A DNA stretch of 64,000 bases, from NCBI GenBank assembly GCA_964458035.1, contig CAYWFZ010000002.1:484-64483 (forward strand). The letters run 5' to 3'. The stretch comes from an uncultured Muribaculaceae bacterium. GTDB taxonomy: Bacteria > Bacillota_I > Bacilli_A > RF39 > UBA660. The translations under genes were made by a program, and so were the position numbers. Positions 9,091 to 45,515 of this stretch are shown piece after piece. The notes under the pieces are model-generated. The model ran no database searches. It saw only the letters and a program-made list of their open reading frames with translations, and was not told the DNA's origin. The first letter of the stretch is position 1. Every line of letters begins with the position of its first letter.

Positions 9091-9213
9091 AAATTCACCT
9101 CTTGTGACATATAGTATAACACAACATTCTCTTTTTTACAAATAATTAATAACAAAAATGTACTTTTATTTAAATACTATCTTATAGTATAATAAGTGCC
9201 AAGGTGAAGTACA

Positions 9214-32526: not shown

Positions 32527-35500
32527 TTAATGATTATTATGTAAAGAAAGAGTTTTATATTCTAAATCTCTAGATAAAGTACTATTATGTTCTAGTCTTA
32601 GTTTAAGATAGCCTAAGACATTAATTAATTCATCCCACTCATCATCAGTTAACAAACTTGCATCAGTTACACCAAATATTTCTTCTATTTTTTTTACAGT
32701 TTTAGGTGGAATATCAGTTCCAACACTAGCTAAAATATTTCTAACATCTTCTCTACTTGCTGAATCAATTCTAAAATAATCCTTATACTTTTCTCTTATT
32801 AAATCATATGTAATAAACTTATTTGGTCGAACTCTTGCAAAGGGCCCTTTTCTTCTAATTTTGTCAAAATATCTACGATAATTTTTCTCACTTACAAGAC
32901 CAAATTCTTCATTATGTTTATAATAATATTCTAATACCTCTTCATAAGAAAATTCCTTAGCTTTCGTTATACCTTGTTTATACTTGAGTACAGAAACAGT
33001 AAACTCTCTTATTATTTCACTTACAGAAGAATCACTAAGTTCTGGATGATAATTCTTTACTATTTCACTCTGTGGTAACCTTTTTTCATAATAAAGGAAA
33101 CATAGTTCATAAGCTAAATCTTGATTACCATAGTATGGTATATCCGTATTTCCTGCATAACTCCAAAAATAATCAAAATCAATACCTGTTTTAATACCTT
33201 TCTGTAAGTCACTTAAGTGCATTCTTATTTTTTGCATTAATAGAGTAAATTGATGTGCTGAAAAGCCAAATTTCTTTTCGATCTTTGTTTGAGGTACCTT
33301 ATCTTTATACATCATCTTTAATATTTCACGATCTTCTAAAATAAAATATTTAAGATATGGTTTAATATCAATTTTATATATTACATCCCCTTTTATTTCA
33401 TTATTTAAATATTTCTTTATTGTAACAATACTTTTATATAATCTCTTTCTAGCAATTGGTTCTCTTATTTCATACTTTAAAGCAATATCTGAAATTTTTA
33501 AGAACTCTTCTCCATATAAACCATAAGCATCAATCACTATATTTTTATCTTCCTTACTTAATGGAAGCCTTTTATTTCTTAAAACACTTTCAAGTTCGCA
33601 TCTGTCAATAAAGTCAATCGCCGTCTTAAGTAAACCTATTTTATGGGCTGCTACATGTTCTTTAGCATGTCTAACATAAGAACCAACATTTCTGCTCACT
33701 CCAATTATTGGACCAATATCAATCGGATAATGTTTCTTACCTGTTTCATTATATGAATTCTTTATTCCATAATAAAGAGAAAGAATAAGTTTTTCCCTTT
33801 CAGTTAAGACATTTACTGAAGGGTGCTCATTTATAGCTTCTATAACATCATCTTTAGTTATTTCAACTTGTTCAATCGATAACTTATTAGCAAGATTATA
33901 AAGTCTTCTAACATAATTGCGAACTACTTCTAAATCAACTCCTGTAATCAAAGAAGTTTCATTCGTATTTCTTACTCTTATAAATACCTCCAAAACAGAT
34001 TTTACATCTTCACCATATTTGGCACTACTTAAAACACTTTTTAAAAACTCCTCAGAATAATTCTTTTGTGTACTTGTTATACCAAAGCGATAATAGTCCA
34101 TTACTGAGACTGCATATTTAACTAATTCAGCTACACGTCTAGGAGTAAAGTCTTCGTCATTCTCATACTTTAAAGAAATACTTTCATAAGTCATATCTTC
34201 AAGGAAGAACATTTTTGCAACACTTAAATGTGGTTCGCCTAAAGGTAAATTATCATCCATTAAAACTTCACGATAAATTTTCTTATCAAAGTAATATTGC
34301 CCAATTCCTAAATAAGTATTTATAGCAGTGTTTTTTGATCTTCTAAAATCTCTTTCTGTTATATCTTCATCTTCATTCAAATAAAGAGACATTTCTCTTA
34401 TCGTCATACGAGACGTAAACACTCCATAGTATAGATCAAGTAAATTAATTTCACGTTCCTCTAAAGTCTCTAAAAGTTCATCTCTAACTGATACATATTT
34501 TTCCTTTGTAAAATTATCATTTTTGTAATCCTCAACATTAAATAAAATCAAGAATAATTTATTGATAGCAGAACGATTAGGATTTACTTCTGATTCATCT
34601 ATACTTTTATCTTTTTTAAAAACATAATAATTCAAAAAATCCTTCTGTTTTTCTGTGAATAAATCTTGATTCTCTAAAAATATAGGATAGAGATGAGACA
34701 AGGATATGTCATGAACCCTATATCCATAAAGTGAATAATTCACATCTCTTTCAATATATTCTTTATTTTGAATATTTTTTCTTTGTGGGTATGCAACATC
34801 AGGTTGATAGCAATTGGGAATGCCATAAAACTTCTTTACAATACCCAATAAATAATCATTTACAGGCACATGATTTTCATCAAGTAGTTTAAGTACATCA
34901 TCAAGTGTCTTATCATTAAAGTACTCACGTATAATCTCTTTATAATCAAAAAACTCAGTAATATCAGAGTCTATTTCTAAATTATATATTTTATTTTTAT
35001 AATGTCCAAATAAATTATTTTTAAATAAATAAAAGTGTGGATCAGAATAGCTATCATGAATAAGCTTTTTTATTTTTTCAAAGCATGCCTCAACATATGA
35101 TTTATCTTCATCTATTTCTAATGCAACATAATCAGGATCGAACTCCATTTTACCAAGTAATATTTCATTTAAAATAAATTGATCTTTTTCCTTAAAATTA
35201 TCTTTTAAGAAAAAATACATTATATAGTTCTCTATTTGGCAAGGTTCTACTTTTATTTTATCGTAATTATAATTTTTTTTAACTTCATCTAGATATTCTT
35301 TTTTTAAATAACCATCATCAGTAAACATTTTCCTAACAGTACTTTTTATACTTCCTTCAACTTGACGTACTCTTTCTTTAGTAATACCTAAGTATTCACT
35401 CATTTCTTCTAGTGTTTTCGTTCTTTTATTTAATACACGATGATACAGTATTAAATATTCATAATCGGACAGTTTAATCTTTAACGTTTTTAAGATTTCT

Positions 35501-36177
35501 TCAACAACTATTTTATTAAGCAAATCATCAATAGAAGTATTTTCCCCTGTAATAAAATCTCCTAAAGTATCTTTATCTGCATCAGAGCTATCAACCGGAG
35601 CATCTAACCATGCAGCTTCAAATTTATAGTCTTCTTCTATCTTGCTTAAAGTAAGATCACTTATTTTAAGTATTCTACAAATTTCACTTCTAGATGGTAC
35701 TTCTTCTCCAGTTTTTTCATATTTATTCATAAATTTTTTATATCTTGTCATAGCCTCTTCAAGATACGCAGGTCTTCTTATAAGTCTTTGATTGTTATAA
35801 CGATAATAACTTATTTCTTTTTGTATTTGATATTCAGCATGAGTAGAAAAAGCAGTACCTCTATTAATATCGAAAGTTTCAACAGCTTTAATAAGACCAA
35901 TAATACCCGATTGTATATAATCAAGTTTCTCTTCTGCACGTAAGACATTCCCTAGCCCAAAAACTTTTGAAATTACCAAATTAATATTTTTATTAACTAT
36001 TAAATCTTTAATCTCGGCATTACCACTAAAATACTCCTGTAACATTTCATCATTTTCTTCACGAGTAGCAGTTTTATATCTTTTAATGATTCTTAAGAAA
36101 TCATTTAAACAACTATCTGATAAAAAATCATCATAATCAATATTTTGTACGTCTGAATTAAATTTATCCATAGACAT
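32527..36177 (-). CDS. Giant sigma-70 family protein: N-terminal sigma2-sigma3-sigma4 core plus a roughly 930-aa extension of repeated sigma4-like HTH modules
   Basis: 1216 aa. Region 2 is 'LVISKVFG...YIQSGIIGLIKAVETFDINRGTAFSTHAEYQIQKEI'. Region 4 is 'LSDYEYLILYHRV...TLEEMSEYLGITKERVRQVEGSIKSTVRKM'. Later segments repeat the pattern, e.g. 'LTEREKLILSLYYGI...' and 'LEEREINLLDLYYGV...TIREMSLYL'. Confidence 0.7.
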   Translation of the reverse strand: MSMDKFNSDVQNIDYDDFLSDSCLNDFLRIIKRYKTATREENDEMLQEYFSGNAEIKDLIVNKNINLVISKVFGLGNVLRAEEKLDYIQSGIIGLIKAVETFDINRGTAFSTHAEYQIQKEISYYRYNNQRLIRRPAYLEEAMTRYKKFMNKYEKTGEEVPSRSEICRILKISDLTLSKIEEDYKFEAAWLDAPVDSSDADKDTLGDFITGENTSIDDLLNKIVVEEILKTLKIKLSDYEYLILYHRVLNKRTKTLEEMSEYLGITKERVRQVEGSIKSTVRKMFTDDGYLKKEYLDEVKKNYNYDKIKVEPCQIENYIMYFFLKDNFKEKDQFILNEILLGKMEFDPDYVALEIDEDKSYVEACFEKIKKLIHDSYSDPHFYLFKNNLFGHYKNKIYNLEIDSDITEFFDYKEIIREYFNDKTLDDVLKLLDENHVPVNDYLLGIVKKFYGIPNCYQPDVAYPQRKNIQNKEYIERDVNYSLYGYRVHDISLSHLYPIFLENQDLFTEKQKDFLNYYVFKKDKSIDESEVNPNRSAINKLFLILFNVEDYKNDNFTKEKYVSVRDELLETLEEREINLLDLYYGVFTSRMTIREMSLYLNEDEDITERDFRRSKNTAINTYLGIGQYYFDKKIYREVLMDDNLPLGEPHLSVAKMFFLEDMTYESISLKYENDEDFTPRRVAELVKYAVSVMDYYRFGITSTQKNYSEEFLKSVLSSAKYGEDVKSVLEVFIRVRNTNETSLITGVDLEVVRNYVRRLYNLANKLSIEQVEITKDDVIEAINEHPSVNVLTEREKLILSLYYGIKNSYNETGKKHYPIDIGPIIGVSRNVGSYVRHAKEHVAAHKIGLLKTAIDFIDRCELESVLRNKRLPLSKEDKNIVIDAYGLYGEEFLKISDIALKYEIREPIARKRLYKSIVTIKKYLNNEIKGDVIYKIDIKPYLKYFILEDREILKMMYKDKVPQTKIEKKFGFSAHQFTLLMQKIRMHLSDLQKGIKTGIDFDYFWSYAGNTDIPYYGNQDLAYELCFLYYEKRLPQSEIVKNYHPELSDSSVSEIIREFTVSVLKYKQGITKAKEFSYEEVLEYYYKHNEEFGLVSEKNYRRYFDKIRRKGPFARVRPNKFITYDLIREKYKDYFRIDSASREDVRNILASVGTDIPPKTVKKIEEIFGVTDASLLTDDEWDELINVLGYLKLRLEHNSTLSRDLEYKTLSLHNNH

Positions 36178-36232: not shown

Positions 36233-36264
36233 GAAAAAAGAATTAACATCTATAATGTTAATTC
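36233..36264 (-). terminator. Rho-independent terminator closing the 39028-36250 operon
   Basis: Perfect 10-bp stem GAATTAACAT (36240-36249) / ATGTTAATTC (36255-36264) spanning the stop codon. On the minus strand it is followed by a U-run (plus-strand A-run 36234-36239). Confidence 0.7.
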
Positions 36265-37599
36265 CTTTTTCTTTATACATTCATGATTTATTTTACCTGT
36301 ACCTAAATAGTTTAAATCAACTCCTAAAGTTGTTTCTAACCAGTTTAGATATTCCCTAACATATCTATCAATATCGACATTCTCATATTCCCCAGTCTTA
36401 TGAGCAAAATCAAGATTTAAATGTTGAAAAAAATTTAAATATATTCCATCAGGATCATTCATACGTACATTTTGTTTTAATTTTCTAATATCTAAATCAA
36501 ATATTTTTCTTTCCATTCTTGTAACTGAAGTCATCTCTGATAAATCTGTTAAATATGGATCTTCTAAACCACTTAAATCAATTACATCAGAAATATACTT
36601 GCGTATTCCCATTCTTTTATTAATAAGTCTCTCCATTTCAAGAGCATCAACAACTGTTACATCTGACATAGACACATTAGTATAATTTTCTCCAAATATT
36701 TGTAACTTATCCCGATTAGTAGTTTGATTTAATAACTTAATCTTTATTTCATCATTTATTTCTTCATAATCAGAAAATTGGTCTACTGTTGGATAAACAC
36801 CAAATTTAGATGCAAAATTTATATGACTCCAAGTTAACTTATCGGCAGTTCCATAACCACCTGTATAAATATACTCACCATCTCTAGTAATATCATTAAT
36901 TCTAATAGGAAATGGCCTTATAACCATATCAGCATAAAGAAGTCTTCTTGGAGAAACACCTGCCTCTTGAAGCATATTAGAAACTGAAATATTTCTTGAA
37001 GTCACATTAGGATGTTCTCCACTAAAATTTAATGATAAATCACATCCTTGAGCTCCCTCGAACAAAACTGTTTCATCTTTACTATCTAAATGTTTATATA
37101 ATAAATCTAACCAATCTGCATTTTTTAAAACTACCGCATTTTTATACCCTTTAAAAAATTCAAGTTCAGGATTTCTTATTATCTTATCTTGGTTACATGC
37201 AGCACACCCATGATAAGTTGAACCACTTTTAATAATTCTCTTTTCCCGCATTTTATGCTCTTCAGTTACTAAAGGAACTAGTTCATGAACATATATCTTG
37301 CGGTTACCTAAGAAGTGTTCATGTTCATCATATTCACGCTTAAATTCTTCCATATCAATTACTGAACTAGGACCAATAAATAATTCAACGTCTCTATTTA
37401 CTGAAGCAACGGGAATGTTTCTAAAAAGGTGAGATACTCCATATTCATCGACAAATGTATGCCCTGCATTAGGCATCGAGTTTGTAAGACTTGCTCCAAC
37501 CGAATATATGGGATTAGTAGCAATCTCACCACACACCTTCGCCTTACCACAAGACCCCGCTTCTCCATCAAAAACACATATTATATTATTATTAACCAT
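36250..37599 (-). CDS. Divergent adenylosuccinate synthetase (PurA)-like enzyme
   Basis: Track ORF trimmed to the ATG at 37599, which has a GGGAGGG RBS. 'NAGHT' and 'FEGAQG' are kept in the PurA order. The other PurA motifs are altered: 'GEAGSCGKAK' (vs GDEGKGK), 'GSTYHGCAAC' (vs GTTGRGIGP), 'SVTRMERK' (vs TTGRRRR), 'HLNLD' and 'GTGK'. Confidence 0.65.
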   Translation of the reverse strand: MVNNNIICVFDGEAGSCGKAKVCGEIATNPIYSVGASLTNSMPNAGHTFVDEYGVSHLFRNIPVASVNRDVELFIGPSSVIDMEEFKREYDEHEHFLGNRKIYVHELVPLVTEEHKMREKRIIKSGSTYHGCAACNQDKIIRNPELEFFKGYKNAVVLKNADWLDLLYKHLDSKDETVLFEGAQGCDLSLNFSGEHPNVTSRNISVSNMLQEAGVSPRRLLYADMVIRPFPIRINDITRDGEYIYTGGYGTADKLTWSHINFASKFGVYPTVDQFSDYEEINDEIKIKLLNQTTNRDKLQIFGENYTNVSMSDVTVVDALEMERLINKRMGIRKYISDVIDLSGLEDPYLTDLSEMTSVTRMERKIFDLDIRKLKQNVRMNDPDGIYLNFFQHLNLDFAHKTGEYENVDIDRYVREYLNWLETTLGVDLNYLGTGKINHECIKKKELTL

Positions 37600-37614
37600 A
37601 AACCCTCCCAAGAT

Positions 37615-38283
37615 TTAAATATTATCCCAAATCCTTTTATATTGTTTAATTTGACTCTCTAAACTAATTTGTGCAGCTGGATGAAAGACTGGAACAATTA
37701 TATAGTTATCTAACTTTATAATTGGATACTTCTCAATTGATTTAGTTAGATTAGATTCTAAAGGAAACCCATATATCTTAGACAAAGCTAAAAGTGGGTA
37801 ATACCCAAGAGTAACTATAACTTTTGGTTCAACTATTTCAATTTGTCTTCTTAAAAAACTAGAACATGCACATGTCGAATATTTTAAATCTATATTATTA
37901 CCACGATAATTTGTGCCATTTCTTGCACACATTATGGCATTAGTTATAAATATCCTACTTTCATCCATTTCTTTATTAGTCATTTTTAAAAACTTAAATA
38001 GATTCTTCTTAGTTAAACTTTTCTCTTCATCAATTAAATATTCCCAACTCTCACCATTTTTATATCTTTTATATAATATTTCCATATCTTTATATGGTCC
38101 CCAATCTTGACCAATAATCATTACATCAGCATCTAAGTGATTTAACCAATCAGTCCAAATGGAAGGAACTAAAAAAGCCATATCAGTAGAATAAAAGTTA
38201 ATCAAAGATTTACTCTGTAAATGCAAACACTTATCACATTTACTTATATCTCTTACTAAAGATTTAAATTCATCACTTTTCAT
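37615..38283 (-). CDS. Uracil-DNA glycosylase superfamily protein (family-4-like, altered motif A)
   Basis: 222 aa. 'CDKC' at the N-terminus, 'IIGQDWGP' in the motif A position, 'FITNAIMCAR', 'IEIVEPKVIVTLG' and 'VFHPAAQ' (motif B). Confidence 0.6.
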   Translation of the reverse strand: MKSDEFKSLVRDISKCDKCLHLQSKSLINFYSTDMAFLVPSIWTDWLNHLDADVMIIGQDWGPYKDMEILYKRYKNGESWEYLIDEEKSLTKKNLFKFLKMTNKEMDESRIFITNAIMCARNGTNYRGNNIDLKYSTCACSSFLRRQIEIVEPKVIVTLGYYPLLALSKIYGFPLESNLTKSIEKYPIIKLDNYIIVPVFHPAAQISLESQIKQYKRIWDNI

Positions 38284-39028
38284 CTAGTACACTTTCATCT
38301 AATTCAATAAATCCGCCTCTACTCCAAAGCCATAAAGGTGTATGAATATCTATTGGCTTATAAGGTGTCCCCTTAAGTGCATTCTTCCATGCTTCAATTA
38401 CTAATTCTTGAACATCACTTCTATTCATTTCATCATCACTTATAAGACCGAGCTTATGAGTAGCCTTAATTACATGTGTATCAGGCGCAACCGTTAAACA
38501 TTCAGGATTAACATAAACAGTATCTGTATATTGCATTATTACATAAAGCCAATAATTTACAAGTTTAGTTCCACTTAAATAAGGAAATGCTTTTTTATAT
38601 TTCAAGATAAAATCTCGTATTTTATTAACGTCATTACCTTCGCTTTTAAAAAGAATACGTATATCGCCATCAAATAAATCAGTTATTGTTTGACATAATT
38701 TAATCCATATTTCAGTCTGTTTATTTTTTTGTAAGGCAACTTTATATTTCACTAAAGCACTCTGTACTTCTTCAAAACTTCTTTTTAAAACTTCTTCCGG
38801 CTTAAAAAGAAATGATGTTTCTGGATCATGCGCCGTTTTATTGGCTCCTTCCCATAAAGTATAAGAATTCCTTTGATAATTTAATGCCATAGGTAACGTG
38901 AAATATAAATAATTTTCTAAAGAGGATTTAGAATAATGAGGATTTTCATCCTCTGGCATTACTTCTCCACCCAACATACCTTTTTTATGCATTGCCATTA
39001 ATATCTCGCATTTCTTTATAATATCCAT
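38273..39028 (-). CDS. HhH-GPD superfamily DNA glycosylase-like protein
   Basis: 251 aa. 'LSGTKLVNYWL...VAPDTHVIKATHKLGLI' parallels EndoIII 'GVGRKTANVVL...VDTHVFRVSNRLG'. Paralogous pattern to the 19103-19852 protein. 11-nt overlap with the downstream UDG-like gene. Confidence 0.5.
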   Translation of the reverse strand: MDIIKKCEILMAMHKKGMLGGEVMPEDENPHYSKSSLENYLYFTLPMALNYQRNSYTLWEGANKTAHDPETSFLFKPEEVLKRSFEEVQSALVKYKVALQKNKQTEIWIKLCQTITDLFDGDIRILFKSEGNDVNKIRDFILKYKKAFPYLSGTKLVNYWLYVIMQYTDTVYVNPECLTVAPDTHVIKATHKLGLISDDEMNRSDVQELVIEAWKNALKGTPYKPIDIHTPLWLWSRGGFIELDESVLDEK

Positions 39029-39054
39029 AACATATCACCTAACAACATTATAGC

Positions 39055-39080
39055 ATAAAAATAAGTGCATATATGCACTT
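39055..39080 (-). terminator. Rho-independent terminator after the 39083-40462 gene
   Basis: Perfect palindrome AAGTGCATATATGCACTT (39063-39080). On the minus strand it is followed by a U-rich run. Confidence 0.7.
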
Positions 39081-39082
39081 AC

Positions 39083-40462
39083 TTAACGTAATTCTTTTTT
39101 TGAATTCACTGGTACCTCATAAACTTTATCAGATGTAGCAATATAATCAAGTAACTCATCAAAAGTTAAATAATCAGGAATATCAAGAAGCTCATAAAGA
39201 GTCTCACCAGGAGCCATACAAGCTGTATATCTTCCTATTAATCTTTCAAAAGAATCAAATTTATAAATACCTTCACTATTAGAAAATGGAACACCCATTA
39301 AACAAGCATTTTCAAATTCATCCAAATAAACAACAAATGTTTTAAATTGAACTTTAGAGTTACTATCTAGACTTTGATTAACAAATACTGTTGCTTGATA
39401 TCCAAGTCTTTTTAAAGTAGTTAAAATAAACTTAGCAAATTCTATATTAGTACCATAAGATTTAGAAAGCGTTTCTTCAAACGGAGATACACGATATCTT
39501 CTTTCAATATCATATGGATTTTTATGAAGTTCATTCTTTTCATCAAACCAACCATATGCAAAATTAGAATTCATATAATCTAGTATATCTTGAGGAGTTT
39601 TTACATGTTTATAAGAAGCGGCAGACATCTTTACTCCTAAATCAGAGCCACAATAATTTACAGTTCTAACTATTAAAAATTTTTCTATCATTTTTCTATA
39701 TTCTGGATTTCTTAAAAGTAAATCAAAATTATATCTATTTTTTAAAGGCATCTTCTTCTTTTCCATCTTTTCAACAGCTAAAGGTGATTCATAAACATTA
39801 AAATCATTATTTAAAACTGTATAATCATCTTCTGTTGCAGGAATCTTAGGTACTTTTGACGATAGCAAATAATTAACCATAAAATAACTAAGTAAATATC
39901 CTGAATATCTAGGAGAACCAATTGTATGTTGACCATTACCCTCATTATAAAGATAAGCTATATTTGGTATTTCTTTTCTACGCCCTACAATTCTTCTTAA
40001 AAAAGCACTTTTACTCTTTTCCTTACTATTTTGTAATGCACTTCTTTCACCCGATAAAGTCTGTGCAATTCCCTCATCTAACCACAAAGGACGTTCAAAA
40101 CTATCAGCATAAATTGATGCATATATAATATGACTATACTGATGAACTATTTTATTAACAACACTAGTTAAATTCTTGTTATTAAGCATTTGTTTAACGT
40201 ATACACCAATTCCCTTATTGGAGTAAGATCCTTCAGCATATTCTTCATACTTCTTCTTAGTCTTCTTAGCTTCATCCTTTAAATCTTCTAAATCAGCAAA
40301 TAAAGTAACTTTTACCGGTCTATAGTCTGATACATTAAAAAAACTTCGAACTAAACTTGCTTTTTCCGAAACCATTTCCAATATACTTTCTAAATATGGT
40401 CTAAATTCGTCACTACCCTGTATAGTGAAATATTCATTACTTATATTTGCCATATAATTCAC
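39083..40462 (-). CDS. Two-domain protein: gluzincin-like N-domain with HQxxH, transglutaminase-like C-domain lacking the Cys
   Basis: 459 aa. 'VHQYSHIIY...(about 20 aa)...LDEGIAQ' follows the HExxH...E pattern with E replaced by Q. The C-terminus 'YGTNIEFAKFILTTLKRLGYQATVFV' resembles 'G.C..FA.....R..GIPAR' without the Cys. Confidence 0.35.
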   Translation of the reverse strand: MNYMANISNEYFTIQGSDEFRPYLESILEMVSEKASLVRSFFNVSDYRPVKVTLFADLEDLKDEAKKTKKKYEEYAEGSYSNKGIGVYVKQMLNNKNLTSVVNKIVHQYSHIIYASIYADSFERPLWLDEGIAQTLSGERSALQNSKEKSKSAFLRRIVGRRKEIPNIAYLYNEGNGQHTIGSPRYSGYLLSYFMVNYLLSSKVPKIPATEDDYTVLNNDFNVYESPLAVEKMEKKKMPLKNRYNFDLLLRNPEYRKMIEKFLIVRTVNYCGSDLGVKMSAASYKHVKTPQDILDYMNSNFAYGWFDEKNELHKNPYDIERRYRVSPFEETLSKSYGTNIEFAKFILTTLKRLGYQATVFVNQSLDSNSKVQFKTFVVYLDEFENACLMGVPFSNSEGIYKFDSFERLIGRYTACMAPGETLYELLDIPDYLTFDELLDYIATSDKVYEVPVNSKKELR

Positions 40463-40477
40463 CTATTATAATTATAA

Positions 40478-40510
40478 CAAATAAAAGAGAATAAATCTCA
40501 CTTTATTCTC
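40478..40510 (-). terminator. Rho-independent terminator after the 40498-41598 gene
   Basis: GAGAATAAA (40487-40495) / TTTATTCTC (40502-40510) overlapping the gene end. U-run on the minus strand. Confidence 0.65.
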
Positions 40511-41598
40511 ATATTTAGCAATTTTTTTACTCTTTTTTTAAATTTTACTCTTGCAGAAGTAACCTTATAAGTTCTAAGTTCTTTCATAAATACATCATAT
40601 AGTGAATTAAACTCTTGTAATATACCTGCATATTCTTCTTCTGTAATAAGTTCTTTTTTCAAATAGTCGTATAGTCTTTTATTAACAAAATCTTTTAAAA
40701 ATTTAGATATTTTAATAAAACTTTTAGTATCAATCCCATGTCCTTCAACATATTGTTTATAAGCCTTATCAATTTTTGTTAGCAACTCCAAATAAGCACT
40801 TTTATACTCATACTTATCAAATTCATCCATTACAGCAATTGGATTTCTAATACTTTCAGAAATAAATATATTATTTGGTAAGACAGAAGATTTTTTACCT
40901 ATCCTACTTGCTTCAAGTAAACCTTTATTATGTAAATAATTCTTATCCATCCAGTTATCACTTGATAAACTAAATGCTGAAACAAACATTTGAAAGAATG
41001 TAAGTAAATCATCTGTAGGAGAAAGAAAGTATTTATCATCATTATGATCATAATATCTAAATAAATCATCTATTATAAAGTCTGGCTCATTTCTCTTTTT
41101 TACAACAGCTACAGCTAGTAATTGTGCTAAACTATCTGCCATATAATACCCTGGTGTATATTCATGTCCATCTGTATCACATTTAAAAAAACCTGAATAA
41201 TTAGAAACATCATATATATCTGCATCTAAAAAGGCATTTCTTTTAAAATAAGAGCCATATACGTTATTAAAAATAACCATTAAAGCATGCCACAATTCAT
41301 GTGAGAAAATAACTTCTATATATTTTATATCTCCATTATATTCACTAGTTCCATACATTTTGATATCTGTTAAACCATCACTTGAAAACCTTGTATGTCC
41401 ATGAACTTTCTCATTTAAATCTTCATCTTTATAATTCCAATCTCGTATTTCTAGTGACTTTATTCTATCTAACACTTTTTCATTAAATAATTCTGTAATC
41501 ATTCTATCAGAATCTCCAAATAGCATACTGATATTATCGCCTAATATTTGTTGAAAAAGCGTATAATCTTTATTAGTCGAAACATTTATAGTATCCAT
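40498..41598 (-). CDS. Putative zinc metallopeptidase-like protein (HExxH)
   Basis: 366 aa. 'VIFSHELWHALMV'. No signal peptide. Confidence 0.4.
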   Translation of the reverse strand: MDTINVSTNKDYTLFQQILGDNISMLFGDSDRMITELFNEKVLDRIKSLEIRDWNYKDEDLNEKVHGHTRFSSDGLTDIKMYGTSEYNGDIKYIEVIFSHELWHALMVIFNNVYGSYFKRNAFLDADIYDVSNYSGFFKCDTDGHEYTPGYYMADSLAQLLAVAVVKKRNEPDFIIDDLFRYYDHNDDKYFLSPTDDLLTFFQMFVSAFSLSSDNWMDKNYLHNKGLLEASRIGKKSSVLPNNIFISESIRNPIAVMDEFDKYEYKSAYLELLTKIDKAYKQYVEGHGIDTKSFIKISKFLKDFVNKRLYDYLKKELITEEEYAGILQEFNSLYDVFMKELRTYKVTSARVKFKKRVKKLLNMRIK

Positions 41599-41643
41599 AA
41601 TAATCCCCCTTAAAAAAATAATACACCTATTATAGCATATTTT

Positions 41644-42300
41644 TTATTTTTGTGCTTGAATCCATTTTATATCTTCAATAGCTTTATCAACATTGAAGAA
41701 TCCATTACCTACTGGATAATACACCGAGTAAAAATCAAATTCTTCTCCATTGATGTTTTTTACAAACTTTTTCTTTCGAACATTAGATACACTTATGCGT
41801 TCATCTAGCATTATTGAACTTACCTGATTGCCAAATAATACAATGGCCTTTGGTTTAATAATATTAAACTCATATTCTAAGTATTTTTTATATTCTAAGA
41901 ATACTGAATCTGGAAGTGGTCTTGCATCTACTTGTGTACACTTTCCTAAGTTAGTTATAAAAAATTTATGTTTTTTTACATTGTCATATACAAGGCGAGA
42001 AAAATCATAATCCCATTCAGATCCTTTTTTTTCGCGTATACTTGCATATATATCATCATCTAATAAATCTAAGTCATGAAAAAGTGTCCATATATTTTTA
42101 GTGCCTATCCAAGGATGTTTTGGACCCTTCCAGCTTTTATCAGCAGCTATATTTCTTCTCGTTGGATTCATAAAAACAAAACAAATATCAGGGTGATCTT
42201 CACATCCACCATTGTAGATTGAATCAAGTTCTTTATCACCATATTTTTTCTGTAAACGATCATATACTTTATATAAATCATCCATTATTTTATATTTCAT
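41644..42300 (-). CDS. Uracil-DNA glycosylase superfamily protein
   Basis: 218 aa. 'ICFVFMNPT' (motif A position, MUG/SMUG-like xxNPx), 'FFITNLGKC', 'IKPKAIVLFG' and 'YYPVGNG' (motif B position). Confidence 0.55.
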   Translation of the reverse strand: MKYKIMDDLYKVYDRLQKKYGDKELDSIYNGGCEDHPDICFVFMNPTRRNIAADKSWKGPKHPWIGTKNIWTLFHDLDLLDDDIYASIREKKGSEWDYDFSRLVYDNVKKHKFFITNLGKCTQVDARPLPDSVFLEYKKYLEYEFNIIKPKAIVLFGNQVSSIMLDERISVSNVRKKKFVKNINGEEFDFYSVYYPVGNGFFNVDKAIEDIKWIQAQK

Positions 42301-42324
42301 AATACCACCTACCTAAATTATATC

Positions 42325-42360
42325 ATAAAAAAAGATTACATATTTTTTAAAGTAATCTTT
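42325..42360 (-). terminator. Terminator hairpin after the 42336-42869 gene
   Basis: AAAGATTAC (42331-42339) / GTAATCTTT (42352-42360) with a 12-nt loop. U-run on the minus strand. Confidence 0.5.
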
Positions 42361-42869
42361 TCATCTCTTTCGTATTTTATTTCTCCCACTAATATCTTAT
42401 ATAGTAACTTGAATGCTCCATCAAATGACACATCATAACCTGTTACAAACTCGTCAACTTTCATTCCTTGAGTTTTAACATAAAAATCATCTAATTTAAG
42501 ATGGTCTTCAATACTCCATATTATGCGAAAATGTGTATAACAACTTATAAGTTCAATTATATAATGAAGTATTTGCGATAATCCATCCATTCTATTCTCA
42601 ACTTGATTCTTATCTAAAGCAGCCATTATATCAAAAAGACTTGATTCATCGCTTAACCCCAACGCTTTTCTATATATAAAAACTTTATCAAGTAAATAAA
42701 CTCTTAAAGCCTCTAATTCCATTTTTAATCTGTCTTCATTACTTGTTAGTTCTTCATAACCATTTTCCCTTAAAAAATTGGCTATTTTATATCGAATATC
42801 TTCTGTTTCAATATTAATCTCTGTTATTACCTCGTCCATAAAGCACCTCACAAAATCATATTCTAACAT
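42336..42869 (-). CDS. Hypothetical protein
   Basis: 177-aa ORF, predicted helical. No motif recognised. Confidence 0.5.
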   Translation of the reverse strand: MLEYDFVRCFMDEVITEINIETEDIRYKIANFLRENGYEELTSNEDRLKMELEALRVYLLDKVFIYRKALGLSDESSLFDIMAALDKNQVENRMDGLSQILHYIIELISCYTHFRIIWSIEDHLKLDDFYVKTQGMKVDEFVTGYDVSFDGAFKLLYKILVGEIKYERDEKITLKNM

Positions 42870-42885
42870 AAGATTAAATAATCCA

Positions 42886-42913
42886 CAATAAAAAGGATAC
42901 CAAGTATCCTTTT
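42886..42913 (-). terminator. Terminator hairpin after the 867-aa gene
   Basis: AAAAGGATAC (42891-42900) / GTATCCTTTT (42904-42913). Confidence 0.6.
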
Positions 42914-45515
42914 ATCTTCCTCTTTCACCCTTTTTTGGTGGAGGTAATACTTCTTCAGCGTAGTAAGAAGCAATTACATTTAAGTCTTCTGGTCCATAGT
43001 TAGTCAAATATGGAATTAAGTAACCCATAGTGAACTCTTTACCAGTTACTTTTATACCATCTTCATGTAAAACAAATAATGAATCACACTTATAAGCATT
43101 AAATAAATCATAATATAAGAAATAATCTAGTACAGTATAATCAGTTCCAGCTACTTGTAAATCTAAAATGCTTGTATCATCTACATAACGAGAATACATG
43201 TATTTATTAGAATCTCTAAATCTTGGATTATATTGAATATCTAAATATGTTACTGTAGGCTGAATAGTTTCTTCTGGAACTTCTTCTTTCTCTTTTATTT
43301 CCCCATCTTTAGATGCTACAATTTCTGCTCCCCTATCTGGAGTTCCAAATGGTTTGACACCAGTTTCTATTGATGTACCATCCATTTCATATTTGTCCAA
43401 GTTTCTCAATACATCTAAAAGTTTTGAGTTTTCTTCTTTTGTTCCTTTATAATCAGTTAAACCAAAATGAGCTGCTATAGCTGAAATATTATCCGGGCTA
43501 GTAATATTACCACCACTCATTAATGCTTCAATCAAATCATTTCCACGATATGAAACATCTCTTAAGTCTGGAATTAAAACATCATCTTCTGTTATATAAT
43601 CTAAGCAGTAAGACTCTGGGTTTACTCTTGCAGCCTTTTTGCCAGTATCAGCAGGCTTGCTTTCTTTTTTATTAGTACTTTCATCAGGGGCAAGATCTCC
43701 TTTAGCTGATGCAAATCCTTCAACATTTCCTTTATCACCAATATTAAACGTTCTTACTTTACTCTGATCATATTTAGGTTCAGCTTTTCTAGATATATCA
43801 AGTATATCTAAGCTAGATAAATCTTTATTTCCAGTTACAGGAGTTTGATATGCCTGCATTTGCTTTTCTCTTTCTTCAGCAGCTTCAATAGCTTTTATAG
43901 CTAAATCAATCGAGTCAGAAAAAGTTTTTAAACTCTCTCCACTAGTAGATTTTACCTCATCTTCTCGAGTTTGAGACCCTTGTTCTTCCTTTTCTTCTTC
44001 ACCATATAAACTACCAAATTGTTCTTTAGCTTTTATTTCTTGATATTCTTGTAAAGCATCATTATATTTTGCAACATCTTCAGGATTAGCACCATTTAAT
44101 ACACTAAATAAAGATGCACCCAACTGACTTGTATAGTCTTTACTAGCAAAAGTCTCATCTCTACTTATTGCATCTTTACCAGTTAAAGTTTCTAATGCAC
44201 GGTCCATATCCTCTTCAGTTCTATAGTTTGAAGGGAAATTATTACCTCTACTAATTATTTCTTCTAACTCAGCTTTTCTTTCCTCAATTTTTCTTTTAGC
44301 ATCTAAATTAGCTTGCTCGACTCTCGAATCAATTATAGAAGGTTTTAAAACACCATTTTCGCGATCTCTTAATACTTGTTCATAATCTTCTTTACTTTTC
44401 TTTGCTAATTCTTCAAGTCTTTTTTCTTCCTCTGATTTTTCTAAAACATATGGATTTTCTTGAGGTTTCTTTTCTTCTAAAGCTTGGTCTATCTGACGAC
44501 TCATAAACAATGCCTCAACATCTAATTCCTTACCAAAAATATTTTCAACTTCTTCATTAATTGAACTATATCTTAAACAATCAGCTATATTAACATTCCA
44601 TTCTTGAAGTTTTGATTTTGTCATATCAACTAAGTGTTCCATTACAAAGTCATAGTCTTCTTCAAGTACACGTGCTAAGATATTTCTAAGTGCCACATAT
44701 TTATTTTTAGTATTATTGAAGTAATCACGAGATAAACTTCCATCGGGCATCATGATATCATTTTTTTCAATAAGAACAGTCACTACTGTTTTAATTGCTT
44801 CATATACTGCATTTGCAACCAAAGATGGAGCAGTAATTCCATCACTTCTAACTTGTTCATAACCATACCAAGAACCAGTTATCTTATACATTGGATGAAC
44901 TTCCATCGTGCTACTAGATAATACATCATCCATATCATCTAAAAATTTTAACATATTAGGTAAATCAGCAGATTTACATCTCAATTTAATTGGTGCACTA
45001 TAACCTAGACAGACAAATCTTGTTGAAGGAGTAACTATTCTAAATTCCTTCAATCCTTCTTTACGCATTCCTTCATATAAAGTTTTTAAAACATAAATAA
45101 AATTTTCTGGTAAAGTTTTTATAATAAATTCATGTTCCATCTCTTTATAGTCATTATCTTGATTAATTCCCGATTGATCATAAACAACTTGTCCACATTC
45201 AAATATTTGCTTTCTTATCTTACGATAGAATATACCACCCATTTTAACCTGGTCAGCTTTATCTAATTTCAAAAATTCAGACTTACCATGACACTTATCA
45301 AAACACATATTAAGCATCATCAAGTTCATAAACTTTTCATTATCATCAGGATCTACCTTACCTGCACAAGCAGAATCAGTTTCTATACAAGCCATAAGAG
45401 AAGTTTTCTGATTATAAAAAGGACTATCAGATTTAATATATCCCTCAACCAAAGAACTAATTAATTCTTCATTTATAACCACTTTCGTATTATTTCTAAA
45501 TTCATTCAATTCCAT
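42912..45515 (-). CDS. Large hypothetical protein with a central E/K-rich low-complexity region
   Basis: 867 aa. Globular N-domain (about 340 aa), then an acidic/coiled-coil linker of about 250-300 aa, then a globular C-domain. No catalytic motif recognised. Confidence 0.55.
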   Translation of the reverse strand: MELNEFRNNTKVVINEELISSLVEGYIKSDSPFYNQKTSLMACIETDSACAGKVDPDDNEKFMNLMMLNMCFDKCHGKSEFLKLDKADQVKMGGIFYRKIRKQIFECGQVVYDQSGINQDNDYKEMEHEFIIKTLPENFIYVLKTLYEGMRKEGLKEFRIVTPSTRFVCLGYSAPIKLRCKSADLPNMLKFLDDMDDVLSSSTMEVHPMYKITGSWYGYEQVRSDGITAPSLVANAVYEAIKTVVTVLIEKNDIMMPDGSLSRDYFNNTKNKYVALRNILARVLEEDYDFVMEHLVDMTKSKLQEWNVNIADCLRYSSINEEVENIFGKELDVEALFMSRQIDQALEEKKPQENPYVLEKSEEEKRLEELAKKSKEDYEQVLRDRENGVLKPSIIDSRVEQANLDAKRKIEERKAELEEIISRGNNFPSNYRTEEDMDRALETLTGKDAISRDETFASKDYTSQLGASLFSVLNGANPEDVAKYNDALQEYQEIKAKEQFGSLYGEEEKEEQGSQTREDEVKSTSGESLKTFSDSIDLAIKAIEAAEEREKQMQAYQTPVTGNKDLSSLDILDISRKAEPKYDQSKVRTFNIGDKGNVEGFASAKGDLAPDESTNKKESKPADTGKKAARVNPESYCLDYITEDDVLIPDLRDVSYRGNDLIEALMSGGNITSPDNISAIAAHFGLTDYKGTKEENSKLLDVLRNLDKYEMDGTSIETGVKPFGTPDRGAEIVASKDGEIKEKEEVPEETIQPTVTYLDIQYNPRFRDSNKYMYSRYVDDTSILDLQVAGTDYTVLDYFLYYDLFNAYKCDSLFVLHEDGIKVTGKEFTMGYLIPYLTNYGPEDLNVIASYYAEEVLPPPKKGERGR

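What the first reader, a model, noticed from the sequence alone, without database searches (positions are those of the whole stretch)
36233..39080. Terminator-bounded operon: HhH-GPD glycosylase-like, atypical UDG-family and divergent PurA-like genes
Strong hairpins at 39055-39080 (end of the upstream gene) and 36233-36264 delimit one minus-strand unit of three tightly coupled genes:
- 38273-39028 is an EndoIII-like HhH protein with the Lys/Asp pattern ('SGTKLVNYWL...PDTHVIKATHKLG').
- 37615-38283 has the UDG family-4 layout: CDKC, FITNAIMCAR and VFHPAAQ, but 'GQDWGP' in place of the usual motif A. It overlaps the first gene by 11 nt (ATGAAAAGTGA).
- 36250-37599 is PurA-like and starts 15 nt after the UDG-like stop, with a GGGAGGG RBS.

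I do not recognise a pairing of two DNA-glycosylase folds with a nucleotide-ligase/synthetase fold (PurA chemistry: activation of a purine 6-oxo group, then amino-acid addition) as a described pathway.

It could be a base-excision plus nucleotide-salvage or conversion module for a damaged or modified purine. It could be a DNA-modification system. It could also be a defence module against phages with non-canonical bases: UDG-superfamily glycosylases acting on modified phage bases (Brig1) and a phage PurA homolog (PurZ, 2-aminoadenine synthesis) are both known precedents for these folds in phage-host conflict.
Basis: partly seen in the sequence, partly recalled or inferred. Interest (0 to 1): 0.8.

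Follow-up and report, generated by a model that had tools for sequence, protein, structure and literature searches.

The report
Glycosylase pair plus chromosomal PurZ-like gene
The three genes are real and probably transcribed together in this gut bacterium, but they are a lineage-specific juxtaposition rather than a conserved pathway; the notable part is that the "PurA-like" gene carries the sequence signatures of phage PurZ (the enzyme that starts 2-aminoadenine synthesis) while sitting in a bacterial chromosome.

Summary
Three minus-strand genes (38273-39028, 37615-38283, 36250-37599) lie between two significant hairpins, with an 11-nt overlap and a 15-nt gap.

- **Gene identities.** Gene 2 is a family-4-like Fe-S uracil-DNA-glycosylase variant (motif A is GQDWGP). 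Gene 1 has no Pfam match, but its predicted fold is HhH-GPD; the best structural match is the nucleotide glycosylase QNG1, followed by EndoIII and MutY. Gene 3 is not an ordinary PurA. It has Ser in place of Asp13, an NFxQ motif instead of TKLD, and a PurZ-type Asp loop. Its best matches are the PurZ models and structures.
- **Host.** The window is a chromosome of an uncultured gut member of the Bacilli, not a phage.
- **Conservation.** The trio is kept only in one clade of about 7 species. UDG1 is lost in one of these and truncated in another, and all but the window carry an extra gene before PurZ-like.
- **Partners elsewhere.** Across 85 loci, the conserved partner of PurZ-like is a Ppx/GppA-type phosphatase (37 loci), which the window lacks. 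The HhH-like/UDG pair recurs more widely, in both gene orders.
- **Defence.** No defence-system match was found.

Verdict: this is a real transcription unit but not a conserved three-gene system. The chromosomal PurZ-type family is a worthwhile lead.

The parts
39059..39084 (-). Terminator-like hairpin directly after the stop codon of the upstream 459-aa gene. It marks the 5' boundary of the unit.
   Evidence: 11-bp stem, 4-nt loop, -11.5 kcal/mol, z = -3.6, followed by a U run.
39047..39055 (-). Extended -10 promoter element TGCTATAAT, 19 nt upstream of the p251 start codon.
   Evidence: Read directly from the sequence. This is a consensus match only, and the promoter scan as a whole was not enriched over shuffles.
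38273..39028 (-). p251: an HhH-GPD-superfamily N-glycosylase-like protein from an unnamed family with no Pfam model. K155 and D183 are invariant.
   Evidence: No Pfam, PHROG, NCBIfam or PDB-sequence hit. The database holds 3432 homologues at E <= 0.001; the 120 best, at 68-98% identity, carry no Pfam domain and, where a source names them, are called hypothetical. The AF2 model has pLDDT 85.8. Foldseek's top hits are QNG1/DUF2419 (E 6e-4, TM 0.55-0.59), then NTHL1, MagIII, Mig and MUTYH.
37615..38283 (-). UDG1: a family-4-like uracil-DNA-glycosylase-superfamily protein with four invariant Cys (Fe-S ligand pattern), motif A GQDWGP and motif B HPAAQ.
   Evidence: Pfam UDG 3.6e-12. NCBIfam Arch_udg and UDG_fam4 hits fall far below their cut-offs. 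PDB 4ZBX, a family-4 UDG, matches at 8.5e-9.
36250..37599 (-). PurZ-type (Ser-type) member of the adenylosuccinate-synthetase superfamily, carrying a family-specific insertion of about 100 aa.
   Evidence: Pfam PF00709 at 69.9 bits; phrog_1211 at 6.4e-37. NCBIfam PurZ scores 133.7 bits, above archaeal PurA at 117 and TIGR00184 at 77, and all are below their cut-offs. The best PDB match is phiVC8 PurZ 6FM1 at 6e-37. Of 133 full-length nearest cluster representatives, 128 have Gly-Ser at the Asp13 position.
36233..36271 (-). Strong hairpin enclosing the PurZ-like stop codon. It marks the 3' boundary of the unit.
   Evidence: 18-bp stem, -18.5 kcal/mol, z = -7.8, with 0 of 200 shuffles as good.
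41644..42300 (-). UDG2: a second UDG-superfamily gene. It lies outside the transcription unit but belongs to the same loose neighbourhood.
   Evidence: Pfam UDG 8.1e-7; PDB 1UI0 and 4ZBX at about 4e-5. It lies within 10 kb of PurZ-like in 10 of 85 loci and directly downstream of it in L059 and L068.

Best explanation
In this genome the three genes form one promoter-to-terminator transcription unit on the chromosome of a low-GC, uncultured gut member of the Bacilli.

**A composite unit, not one pathway (inferred).**
- Genes 1 and 2 are a recurrent pair. p251 is an HhH-GPD-fold glycosylase that keeps a Lys/Asp pair. UDG1 is a family-4-like Fe-S UDG variant.
- This pair most likely acts in base excision: UDG1 removes uracil or a similar deaminated base, and p251 removes another lesion and/or cleaves the abasic site through its lysine. 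These activities are inferred, not shown.
- Gene 3 belongs to a bacterial, chromosomal clade of the PurZ-type branch of adenylosuccinate synthetases. From its motifs it most likely uses ATP and aspartate to convert a 6-oxopurine nucleotide to the N6-succino adduct. The Ser-for-Asp13 signature favours a guanine nucleotide, (d)GMP, over IMP. This too is inferred.
- Elsewhere this enzyme normally works with a Ppx/GppA-type phosphohydrolase encoded about 20 nt upstream. That partner could supply the monophosphate from guanosine polyphosphates, by analogy with MazZ and DUF550 in Z-phages. This is inferred.

**How the tight junction arose (shown).**
- In the window's clade the Ppx-like partner is absent from the locus.
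- PurZ-like came to lie behind the glycosylase pair.
- The tight 15-nt junction exists only in the window. All six clade relatives that were sampled carry a ~229-aa gene immediately upstream of PurZ-like, between it and UDG1 (or p251 where UDG1 is missing); in the sixth (L088) that gene is inferred from a 720-nt gap only.
For: **Host and context**
- The surrounding genes are chromosomal housekeeping genes: ABC/FtsX, P-type ATPase, GH3, LDH.
- Homologues come from MAGs labelled 'uncultured Bacilli' or 'Tenericutes', including a 1.5-Mb circular chromosome.
- No relative was found in IMG/VR viral contigs.

**Unit boundaries**
-.

**PurZ-type identity**
- GSCGK against PurA GDEGK; LNFFQ against PurZ LNFAQ/LNFCN and PurA TKLD; a T(T/S)VT loop.
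- 128 of 133 full-length nearest cluster representatives are Gly-Ser type, and none has xKxD.
- Literature: Ser replaces Asp13 in 100% of phage PurZ, while Asp is kept in 99% of PurA (PMC12884076). The residues of the PurZ pocket are listed in PMC8342488.

**Conserved Ppx/GppA-like partner**
- It lies immediately upstream in 37 of 85 loci.
- It matches Pfam PF02541 and the GppA structure 6PC0 at 4e-12.
- It also precedes the short 385-aa PurZ-like variant in L212.
- It is absent from the window.

**The trio is limited to one clade**
- Members are the window, L004, L006, L007, L008, L079 and L088.
- UDG1 is missing in L079 and truncated in L007.
- An extra 229-aa gene lies upstream of PurZ-like in five relatives and is absent from the window. 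L088 has a 720-nt gap of matching size.

**The p251-UDG1 pair recurs**
- p251 lies within 8 kb of UDG1 in 17 of 80 UDG1 loci.
- It is directly adjacent in 8 of these, 4 in each gene order.
Against: - No activity of any of the three proteins was tested.
- p251's best structural match is QNG1, which acts on a free nucleotide rather than on DNA. The base-excision role of p251 is therefore uncertain.
- PurZ-like lies directly beside UDG1 (L080), UDG2 (L059, L068) or one gene from p251 (L024, L053) in arrangements unrelated to the window's. That is more than a purely accidental neighbourhood predicts.
- The clade arrangement persists down to about 50% PurZ-like identity in L088, so it is old rather than a fleeting accident.
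Confidence: 0.6

Rival explanations
1. The three genes, with UDG2, are a functional purine-base module. PurZ-like makes 2-aminoadenine (Z) or another non-canonical purine nucleotide. The glycosylases then police DNA or the nucleotide pool for that base, or for A or G, either to maintain the host genome or against phages. This is essentially the first reader's idea.
For: - PurZ-like lies next to UDG-superfamily or HhH-like genes in about 8 different arrangements across 15 of 85 loci. After the Ppx-like gene, and leaving aside the multi-copy ABC-ATPase and LysR-type families, UDG2 and p251 are its most frequent neighbours.
- The trio is kept in a clade down to 50% PurZ-like identity.
- p251 resembles a nucleotide N-glycosylase, QNG1.
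- The UDG Pfam domain is reported to co-occur with PurZ-network domains in dZ-modified phage contigs (bioRxiv 10.1101/2025.10.22.683976).
Against: - 70 of 85 PurZ-like loci have none of the three families within reach.
- In 10 of 13 assemblies that hold both UDG1 and PurZ-like, the genes are not adjacent.
- Inside the clade, UDG1 is lost in L079 and truncated in L007 while PurZ-like stays intact.
- p251 is found in 577 species-level loci, against 91 for PurZ-like.
- PADLOC gave no meaningful hit.
- No DatZ-, MazZ- or DpoZ-like neighbour recurs.
Confidence: 0.2
2. The PurA-like gene is simply this lineage's working adenylosuccinate synthetase (IMP to succinyl-AMP) for purine salvage, descended from the short archaeal/PurZ-type branch. 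On this view its position next to DNA-repair genes has no meaning.
For: - The family is widespread and appears once per locus, in variable housekeeping contexts, across more than 85 species of small-genome gut Bacilli.
- His41, Gln224 and the phosphate-binding residues are conserved.
- No canonical purA was seen in 3.2 Mb of sampled sequence from these genomes. This is weak evidence, because only about two genome equivalents were sampled, clustered around three anchor genes.
Against: - Asp13, kept in 99% of PurA, is Ser here, as in all phage PurZ (PMC12884076).
- The GTP-specific TKLD motif is replaced by the ATP-type NFxQ.
- NCBIfam PurA equivalog scores fall far below their cut-offs, and one NCBI record names a homologue as hypothetical protein.
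- The family was detected in far fewer species than p251, 91 against 577, which suggests an accessory gene.
- No purB was seen in the same sample.
- The conserved partner is a Ppx/GppA-family (exopolyphosphatase / guanosine-pentaphosphate) phosphatase, which has no role in IMP-to-AMP conversion.
Confidence: 0.25
3. The unit is an anti-phage defence or DNA-modification island acquired horizontally.
For: - UDG-fold (Brig1) and PurA-fold (PurZ) proteins do appear in phage-host conflict.
- A unique 1216-aa sigma-like gene is inserted immediately downstream in this genome only.
Against: - The only PADLOC hit was a sub-threshold one (E 0.006, 14 bits) to an unrelated REase model.
- GC content is flat at 0.26-0.29 across the window.
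- The genes are syntenic with housekeeping genes in related genomes.
- All three families are vertically widespread in the lineage.
- No relative of the PurZ-like gene was found in viral contigs.
Confidence: 0.04

Closest known systems
PurZ (N6-succino-2-amino-2'-deoxyadenylate synthase of Z-genome phages phiVC8 and S-2L; PDB 6FM1, 7ODX; NCBIfam NF038379)
   Same: - It is the best profile and structure-sequence match.
- Ser stands at the PurA-Asp13 position.
- MPNAGHT is identical.
- GS(T) and TSR substrate-pocket residues are shared.
- The T(T/S)VT aspartate loop is shared.
- The LNFxQ adenine-binding motif implies ATP as the phosphate donor.
   Different: - Identity is only 25-29% over the alignment.
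- The score of 133.7 bits is below the 300-bit cut-off.
- There is an insertion of about 100 aa between the core and the Asp loop.
- The gene is encoded in bacterial chromosomes, with no DatZ, MazZ or DpoZ nearby.
- Its usual partner is a Ppx/GppA-like phosphatase.
- It is absent from IMG/VR.
Short archaeal-type PurA (Pyrococcus horikoshii, PDB 2D7U and 5K7X; NCBIfam NF003295)
   Same: It is the second-best match (2e-35 against PDB; 117 bits) and shares the compact core architecture of PurZ-type proteins.
   Different: By the literature, PurA enzymes keep the catalytic Asp and use GTP (PMC12884076). The window protein has Ser and an ATP-type motif.
Family-4 uracil-DNA glycosylases (Sulfolobus tokodaii 4ZBX, Thermotoga 1L9G, Thermus 1UI0)
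   Same: - UDG1 aligns over motif FITN..C, the Cys ligands and HPAA.
- Four invariant Cys fit the [4Fe-4S] ligand pattern.
   Different: - Motif A is GQDWGP, not GE(A/G)PG. The Gln-Asp is reminiscent of family-1 GQDPYH (from my own knowledge).
- Scores fall far below the family-4 cut-offs, at 32 against 125 bits.
HhH-GPD superfamily: QNG1/DUF2419 queuosine-5'-monophosphate glycosylase and EndoIII/NTHL1/MutY DNA glycosylases
   Same: - The predicted all-helical two-domain fold matches these proteins, with Foldseek probability about 1.0 and TM 0.40-0.59.
- An invariant Lys (SGTK) and Asp (PDTH) fit the EndoIII-style pattern.
   Different: - There is no sequence-profile match to PF00730, PF10343 or any PDB chain.
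- Lys-Asp spacing is 28 residues, against 18 in EndoIII (from my own knowledge) and 32 in QNG1 (K199 and D231, named in the PDB titles).
- The substrate is unknown.
MazZ/DUF550-PurZ gene pairs of Z-phages (a dGTP to dGMP supplier next to PurZ)
   Same: A nucleotide phosphohydrolase gene is tightly coupled to a PurZ-type gene: the Ppx/GppA-like gene lies about 20 nt upstream in 37 of 85 loci (PMC8342488).
   Different: - The phosphohydrolase has a different fold: ASKHA Ppx/GppA rather than the all-alpha MazG type.
- Its substrate has not been tested.
- The pair is absent from the window itself.

Membership tests
Adenylosuccinate synthetase PurA (EC 6.3.4.4) | Match to Pfam PF00709 above the gathering score | tested here: met
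   69.9 bits against a cut-off of 27, but only residues 41-143 align strongly.
Adenylosuccinate synthetase PurA (EC 6.3.4.4) | Catalytic Asp13 in the GDEGKG P-loop | tested here: not met
   The P-loop is GSCGKAK, with Ser at the aligned position. Asp is kept in 99% of PurA (PMC12884076).
Adenylosuccinate synthetase PurA (EC 6.3.4.4) | GTP-specific (N/T)KxD guanine-binding motif | tested here: not met
   YLNFFQHL aligns with E. coli LTKLDVL.
Adenylosuccinate synthetase PurA (EC 6.3.4.4) | NCBIfam equivalog score (TIGR00184, NF002223) | tested here: not met
   77 bits against a cut-off of 395, and 53.6 against 402.
PurZ (succino-amino-deoxyadenylate synthase) | Ser replacing PurA Asp13 | tested here: met
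   S16 is invariant in the family and aligns with S23 of S-2L PurZ.
PurZ (succino-amino-deoxyadenylate synthase) | ATP/dATP pocket residues N305, F306 and Q308 (S-2L numbering) | tested here: met
   N389, F390 and Q392 align with them.
PurZ (succino-amino-deoxyadenylate synthase) | NCBIfam NF038379 cut-off | tested here: not met
   133.7 bits against a cut-off of 300, although it is the top-scoring model.
PurZ (succino-amino-deoxyadenylate synthase) | Phage genome context with DatZ, MazZ/DUF550 or DpoZ | tested here: not met
   The context is chromosomal. No such neighbours recur in 85 loci, and there is no relative in IMG/VR.
PurZ (succino-amino-deoxyadenylate synthase) | Activity: dGMP + Asp + ATP gives dSMP | not testable with these tools
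   This needs an enzyme assay.
UDG family 4 | UDG-superfamily profile match and alignment to solved family-4 enzymes | tested here: met
   Pfam UDG 47 bits against a cut-off of 24.3; 4ZBX at 8.5e-9.
UDG family 4 | Four Cys ligands of the [4Fe-4S] cluster | tested here: met
   C16, C19, C119 and C140 are invariant in 5 orthologues. C119 and C140 align with the corresponding Cys of 4ZBX.
UDG family 4 | Motif A GE(A/G)PG | tested here: not met
   The motif is an invariant GQDWGP. The family-4 consensus is recalled from my own knowledge.
UDG family 4 | TIGR00758 or NF040953 cut-off | tested here: not met
   32.2 bits against 125.3, and 47.1 against 250.
HhH-GPD DNA glycosylases (EndoIII-like) | Sequence-profile match (PF00730) | tested here: not met
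   No Pfam family at E <= 0.01. No PDB chain at E <= 10 with the family profile.
HhH-GPD DNA glycosylases (EndoIII-like) | HhH-GPD fold | tested here: met
   The AF2 model (pLDDT 85.8) matches NTHL1, MagIII, Mig, MUTYH and OGG1 with probability 0.9-1.0. This rests on a predicted structure only.
HhH-GPD DNA glycosylases (EndoIII-like) | Catalytic Lys after the hairpin and Asp about 20 residues later, placed in the active site | tested here: inconclusive
   K155 and D183 are invariant, but their position in the pocket was not checked residue by residue.
QNG1 / DUF2419 queuine-salvage glycosylase | Pfam Q_salvage match; activity on queuosine-5'-monophosphate | tested here: not met
   It is the top fold hit (E 6e-4, TM 0.55-0.59) but gives no profile hit. 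No tgt or queuosine genes appear among the recurrent neighbours. Activity was not tested.
Known anti-phage defence systems (PADLOC-DB 2.0) | Match of any component to a defence-system model | tested here: not met
   Nine proteins were scanned. The only hit was a 14-bit match (E 0.006) to a REase model. Brig1 postdates this library and was not tested.

The most novel reading that the evidence does not exclude
Gut Bacilli carry a chromosomal two-gene module, made of a Ppx/GppA-like phosphatase and a PurZ-type synthetase, that makes 2-aminoadenine (Z) nucleotides in a cell rather than in a phage.

On this reading, the UDG-superfamily and HhH-like glycosylases that repeatedly sit beside it, including the window's operon, handle the consequences for DNA or the nucleotide pool. 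Natural Z-DNA has so far been reported only in phages (PMC13128860).
Probability: 0.12. Interest if true: 0.9.

Novelty: new variant of a known kind. Interest (0 to 1): 0.45.

Why it matters
PurZ is the committed enzyme of 2-aminoadenine DNA, and natural Z-DNA is so far known only from phages.

A family with the PurZ sequence signatures is vertically widespread in the chromosomes of more than 85 species of uncultured gut Bacilli and is tightly coupled to a guanosine-polyphosphate-type phosphatase. This leaves two possibilities:
- a cellular route to Z-type nucleotides, or
- evidence that the Ser-for-Asp13 signature does not by itself predict Z synthesis.

The second possibility would matter for the thousands of phage genomes now predicted to be Z-DNA from PurZ homology alone.

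Two further points may be of use:
- p251 defines a large family with no Pfam model (577 species-level loci) in the HhH-GPD superfamily.
- UDG1 defines a family-4-like UDG with a family-1-like Gln-Asp motif A.

The three-gene operon itself is ordinary: a lineage-specific juxtaposition.

Tried and rejected
- **Phage origin.** I first suspected a phage window because of the low GC and the giant sigma-like ORF. I rejected this: there is no megablast hit to phages, the surrounding genes are cellular housekeeping genes, and relatives lie in bacterial MAGs.
- **Defence system.** PADLOC was negative.
- **Riboswitch clue.** Rfam gave no family hit in the window, and only two tRNAs in seven Ppx-PurZ-like loci.
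- **Is the extra 229-aa gene of relatives a degenerate Ppx-like gene?** hhalign probability was 0.2%, so no. The window holds no remnant of it.
- **Are p251 and the neighbouring 256-aa 'GYGQKT...PLDRHD' protein paralogues?** BLASTP was not significant, and the 256-aa protein has no Pfam hit.
- **Canonical purA or purB in the same genomes.** tblastn with E. coli PurA and PurB against 3.2 Mb of fetched loci found only the PurZ-like genes and no purB. I judged this uninformative because only about two genome equivalents were sampled, clustered around three anchor genes.
- **Literature search for a purine reconstruction of RF39.** This was unproductive.
- **Literature search for bacterial PurZ-like proteins.** Nothing was found beyond archaeal relatives.

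Full report
**1. Observation**

The ORF list and the sequence confirm three co-directional minus-strand genes.
- p251 lies at 38273-39028 (251 aa).
- UDG1 lies at 37615-38283 (222 aa) and overlaps p251 by 11 nt.
- A 449-aa PurA-like gene starts at the ATG at 37599, 15 nt after the UDG1 stop and behind GGGAGGG.

The two hairpins are real and better than shuffled sequence.
- The first spans 39084-39059: 11 bp, -11.5 kcal/mol, z = -3.6.
- The second spans 36271-36233: 18 bp, -18.5 kcal/mol, z = -7.8. It encloses the stop codon, and the terminator scan also lists it.

An extended -10 box, TGCTATAAT (39055-39047), sits between the first hairpin and the p251 start. The three genes are therefore a plausible single transcription unit.

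**2. Host and context**

The window has 26-29% GC throughout and no near match to any phage record. Its other genes include MacB/FtsX ABC transporters, a P-type ATPase, a GH3 hydrolase, LDH, a non-specific endonuclease, a Mn catalase and a family-2 glycosyltransferase. Homologues of all three genes come from gut MAGs labelled uncultured Bacilli, Tenericutes or Mycoplasmatota, and from Candidatus Onthousia and Ventrenecus. They include a 1.5-Mb circular chromosome. This is a bacterial chromosome.

**3. The PurA-like gene is PurZ-type**

- Pfam assigns it to Adenylsucc_synt.
- The best-scoring specific models are PHROG 1211, the PurZ family (6.4e-37), and NCBIfam PurZ (133.7 bits). These score ahead of archaeal PurA (117 bits) and bacterial PurA (77 bits). 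All are below their curated cut-offs.
- The best solved structures by sequence are phiVC8 PurZ (6FM1 and related entries, 6e-37), then Pyrococcus PurA, then S-2L PurZ and PurZ0.

I aligned the protein with phiVC8, S-2L and Bacillus-phage PurZ, with Gordonia-phage PurZ0 and with E. coli PurA. The comparison shows:

| Feature | Window protein | PurZ | PurZ0 | E. coli PurA |
|---|---|---|---|---|
| P-loop | GSCGKAK | GSTGKG | GSEAKG | GDEGKG |
| NTP-base motif | YLNFFQ | FLNFAQ / FLNFCN | HLSMAD | LTKLD |
| Aspartate loop | TSVTR (TTVTK in relatives) | TTVTK | TTVTN | ATTGR |

It also carries an insertion of about 100 residues that none of the others has.

The S-2L structure paper names Y21-S23, N49, A50, S131, T132, Q190, T205, R240, V241 and N305, F306, Q308 as pocket residues. 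Nearly all are identical or conservatively replaced here.

A recent survey reports Ser at this position in 100% of phage PurZ and Asp in 99% of PurA (PMC12884076).

I ran an exhaustive HMMER search of 1.84 billion cluster representatives. Among the 133 full-length best hits, 128 have Gly-Ser at that position, 111 have an NFxQ-like motif, none has xKxD, and 119 have T[TS]VT. The protein sits inside the Ser-type radiation.

No relative was found in IMG/VR. More distant 'GSC'-type relatives also lie in contexts that look cellular rather than viral.

**4. The two glycosylase-like genes**

*UDG1.* It matches Pfam UDG (3.6e-12) and, weakly, the family-4 models. It aligns with the S. tokodaii family-4 UDG (4ZBX, 8.5e-9) across FITN..C, the Cys ligands and HPAA. 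Five orthologues keep C16, C19, C119, C140 and GQDWGP invariant. It is a family-4-like Fe-S protein with an unusual motif A.

*p251.* It has no Pfam, PHROG, NCBIfam or PDB-sequence match. It belongs to a very conserved family: 3432 homologues at E <= 0.001, the 120 best at 68-98% identity, with no Pfam domain on record and named hypothetical where a source names them, and 577 species-level loci. An AlphaFold model (pLDDT 85.8) matches the queuine-salvage nucleotide glycosylase QNG1/DUF2419 best (E 6e-4, TM 0.55-0.59). NTHL1, MagIII, Mig, MUTYH and OGG1 follow. The HhH-GPD fold is supported. Whether the substrate is DNA or a free nucleotide is open.

**5. Is the trio conserved?**

*Seen from the PurZ-like side.* I examined 85 loci at 47-78% identity.
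- The one strongly conserved neighbour is a ~298-aa Ppx/GppA-family protein ending about 20 nt upstream. It is present in 37 loci, plus 2 at a distance.
- Its family assignment rests on Pfam PF02541 and the H. pylori GppA structure 6PC0 at 4e-12.
- It also precedes a short 385-aa PurZ-like variant in L212.
- The window has no copy.
- UDG1 lies within 1.2 kb of PurZ-like in 4 loci, UDG2 within 10 kb in 10 loci, and p251 within 10 kb in 8 loci. Seventy loci have none of the three.

*The window's arrangement.* The order p251-UDG1-PurZ-like followed by the ABC transporter recurs only in one clade: L004, L006, L007, L008, L079 and L088.
- UDG1 is missing in L079 and reduced to 74 residues in L007.
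- Five of these relatives carry an extra 229-aa gene directly upstream of PurZ-like. It follows UDG1 where UDG1 is present, and p251 in L079. L088 has a 720-nt gap of the same size between UDG1 and PurZ-like.
- The window lacks this gene entirely, so the tight 15-nt junction is found in the window alone.

*Seen from the UDG1 side.* I examined 80 loci.
- PurZ-like is adjacent in 4.
- Thirteen assemblies appear in both lists. The two genes are adjacent in 3, lie 10 kb apart in 1, and are on different contigs in 9.
- p251 lies within 8 kb of UDG1 in 17 of 80 loci. It is directly adjacent in 8 of these, 4 upstream (overlapping or 20 nt away) and 4 downstream.
- The glycosylase pair is therefore the more conserved sub-unit.

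*Neighbours of p251.* They are otherwise variable: UDG1 in 11 loci, a 256-aa protein with HhH-like motifs in 11, UDG2 in 10, PurZ-like in 9, an NTPase_I-T in 6, plus DHH, ASCH and DUF3795 proteins. This suggests a loose nucleic-acid and nucleotide maintenance neighbourhood.

**6. A residual signal**

PurZ-like lies directly beside glycosylase-like genes in arrangements unrelated to the window's.
- L080: Ppx-like, PurZ-like, UDG1.
- L068: Ppx-like, PurZ-like, UDG2.
- L059: PurZ-like, UDG2, with a 1-nt gap.
- L024 and L053: PurZ-like, a methyltransferase, p251.

My rough estimate is as follows. Three families within +/-10 kb of a given gene in a 1.5-Mb genome gives about 4% per independent context. 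I observed about 8 arrangements in perhaps 60 independent contexts. That is above chance, but it is not corrected for shared ancestry. The estimate is an inference, not a computed test.

A preprint reports the UDG Pfam domain among domains that co-occur with the PurZ network in dZ-modified phage contigs. That keeps the link worth testing.

**7. Mechanism**

*Shown:*
- the anatomy of the unit;
- the fold and family assignments;
- the PurZ-type signature;
- the conservation pattern.

*Inferred:*
- UDG1 and p251 act in base excision.
- PurZ-like uses ATP and aspartate on a 6-oxopurine nucleotide. The Ser signature and the guanosine-polyphosphate-type partner favour (d)GMP.
- The Ppx-like partner supplies the monophosphate, by analogy with MazZ and DUF550 (PMC8342488).

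*Not resolved:*
- whether these genomes also hold an Asp13-type purA or a purB (one search was uninformative);
- whether any Z nucleotide is made.

**8. Comparison and novelty**

The PurZ-like protein works like PurZ by every sequence criterion I could test. It fails the curated score and the phage-context criteria, so I do not file it as PurZ. UDG1 fails the family-4 motif A and score criteria. p251 is HhH-GPD by predicted fold only. No defence-system model matches.

In the papers I could search, natural Z-DNA is described as exclusive to phages, and cellular PurZ relatives are mentioned only for archaea. I found no description of this bacterial family.

The operon as such is an ordinary lineage-specific juxtaposition of new variants of known kinds. 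The chromosomal PurZ-type/Ppx-like module is the part that deserves follow-up.

Noticed in passing
window 32527-36177 (-): A 1216-aa ORF has an N-terminal sigma-70-like region (r2 and r4; phrog_351 at 1.2e-38) followed by about 900 residues that match nothing. It lies between PurZ-like and the ABC transporter in this genome only; all syntenic relatives go straight from PurZ-like to the ABC ATPase.
   Followed up: partly
L011, L039, L064, L068, L080 and others, about 9070-9970 (+); 37 of 85 PurZ-like loci: A ~298-aa short Ppx/GppA-family phosphatase (catalytic domains only) ends about 20 nt before the PurZ-like start. It is the true conserved partner of the PurZ-like gene and is absent from the 64-kb window.
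   Followed up: yes
L212 10432-11589 (+): A short 385-aa PurZ-like variant (DGQAGSCGKGK) lacks most of the family's ~100-aa insertion. It is again preceded by the Ppx-like gene, with an 8-nt gap, and lies 3.7 kb from a p251 homologue.
   Followed up: partly
window 41644-42300 (-): A second UDG-superfamily gene, UDG2, has FMNPT where motif A would be and YYPVGNG (no His) where motif B would be. It is 60-85% identical across the lineage and lies directly downstream of PurZ-like in L059 and L068.
   Followed up: partly
L004, L006, L007, L008 and L079, about 9295-9985 (+): A 227-238-aa protein with no Pfam match lies directly upstream of PurZ-like in five clade relatives, after UDG1 where that gene is present. 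The window has no trace of it.
   Followed up: yes
window 39083-45515 (-): A block of unknown proteins (459 aa; 366 aa with an HELWH metalloprotease-like motif; 177 aa; 867 aa) surrounds UDG2. It is syntenic in the window's clade. None has a Pfam, PHROG, NCBIfam or PADLOC match.
   Followed up: partly
window 22120-23013 (-); L045 11391-12275 (+): A DUF1848 protein (4.9e-84) is encoded 13 kb from the unit. In L045 the ORF directly downstream of PurZ-like may be a DUF1848 protein too, judged by eye from its N-terminal sequence and length (294 aa); it was not scanned against Pfam or aligned.
   Followed up: no
L020 5164-6129 (+): An adenosine deaminase (Pfam A_deaminase at 4.8e-60) is encoded about 230 nt downstream of PurZ-like in one genome. 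Adenosine deaminases convert 2,6-diaminopurine nucleosides to guanosine (from my own knowledge). This is a single case.
   Followed up: no
L074 11416-11919 (+); L200 5462-5959 (+): A Cys-rich DUF3795 protein (~165 aa) lies directly downstream of PurZ-like in 3 loci. A similar DUF3795 protein is adjacent to p251 in 3 other loci.
   Followed up: no
L198 6772-7542 (+) and 10 other p251 loci: A 256-aa protein with HhH-like motifs (GYGQKT ... PLDRHD) and a C-terminal Cys cluster lies next to p251 in several genomes. It has no Pfam hit and no significant BLASTP similarity to p251.
   Followed up: partly
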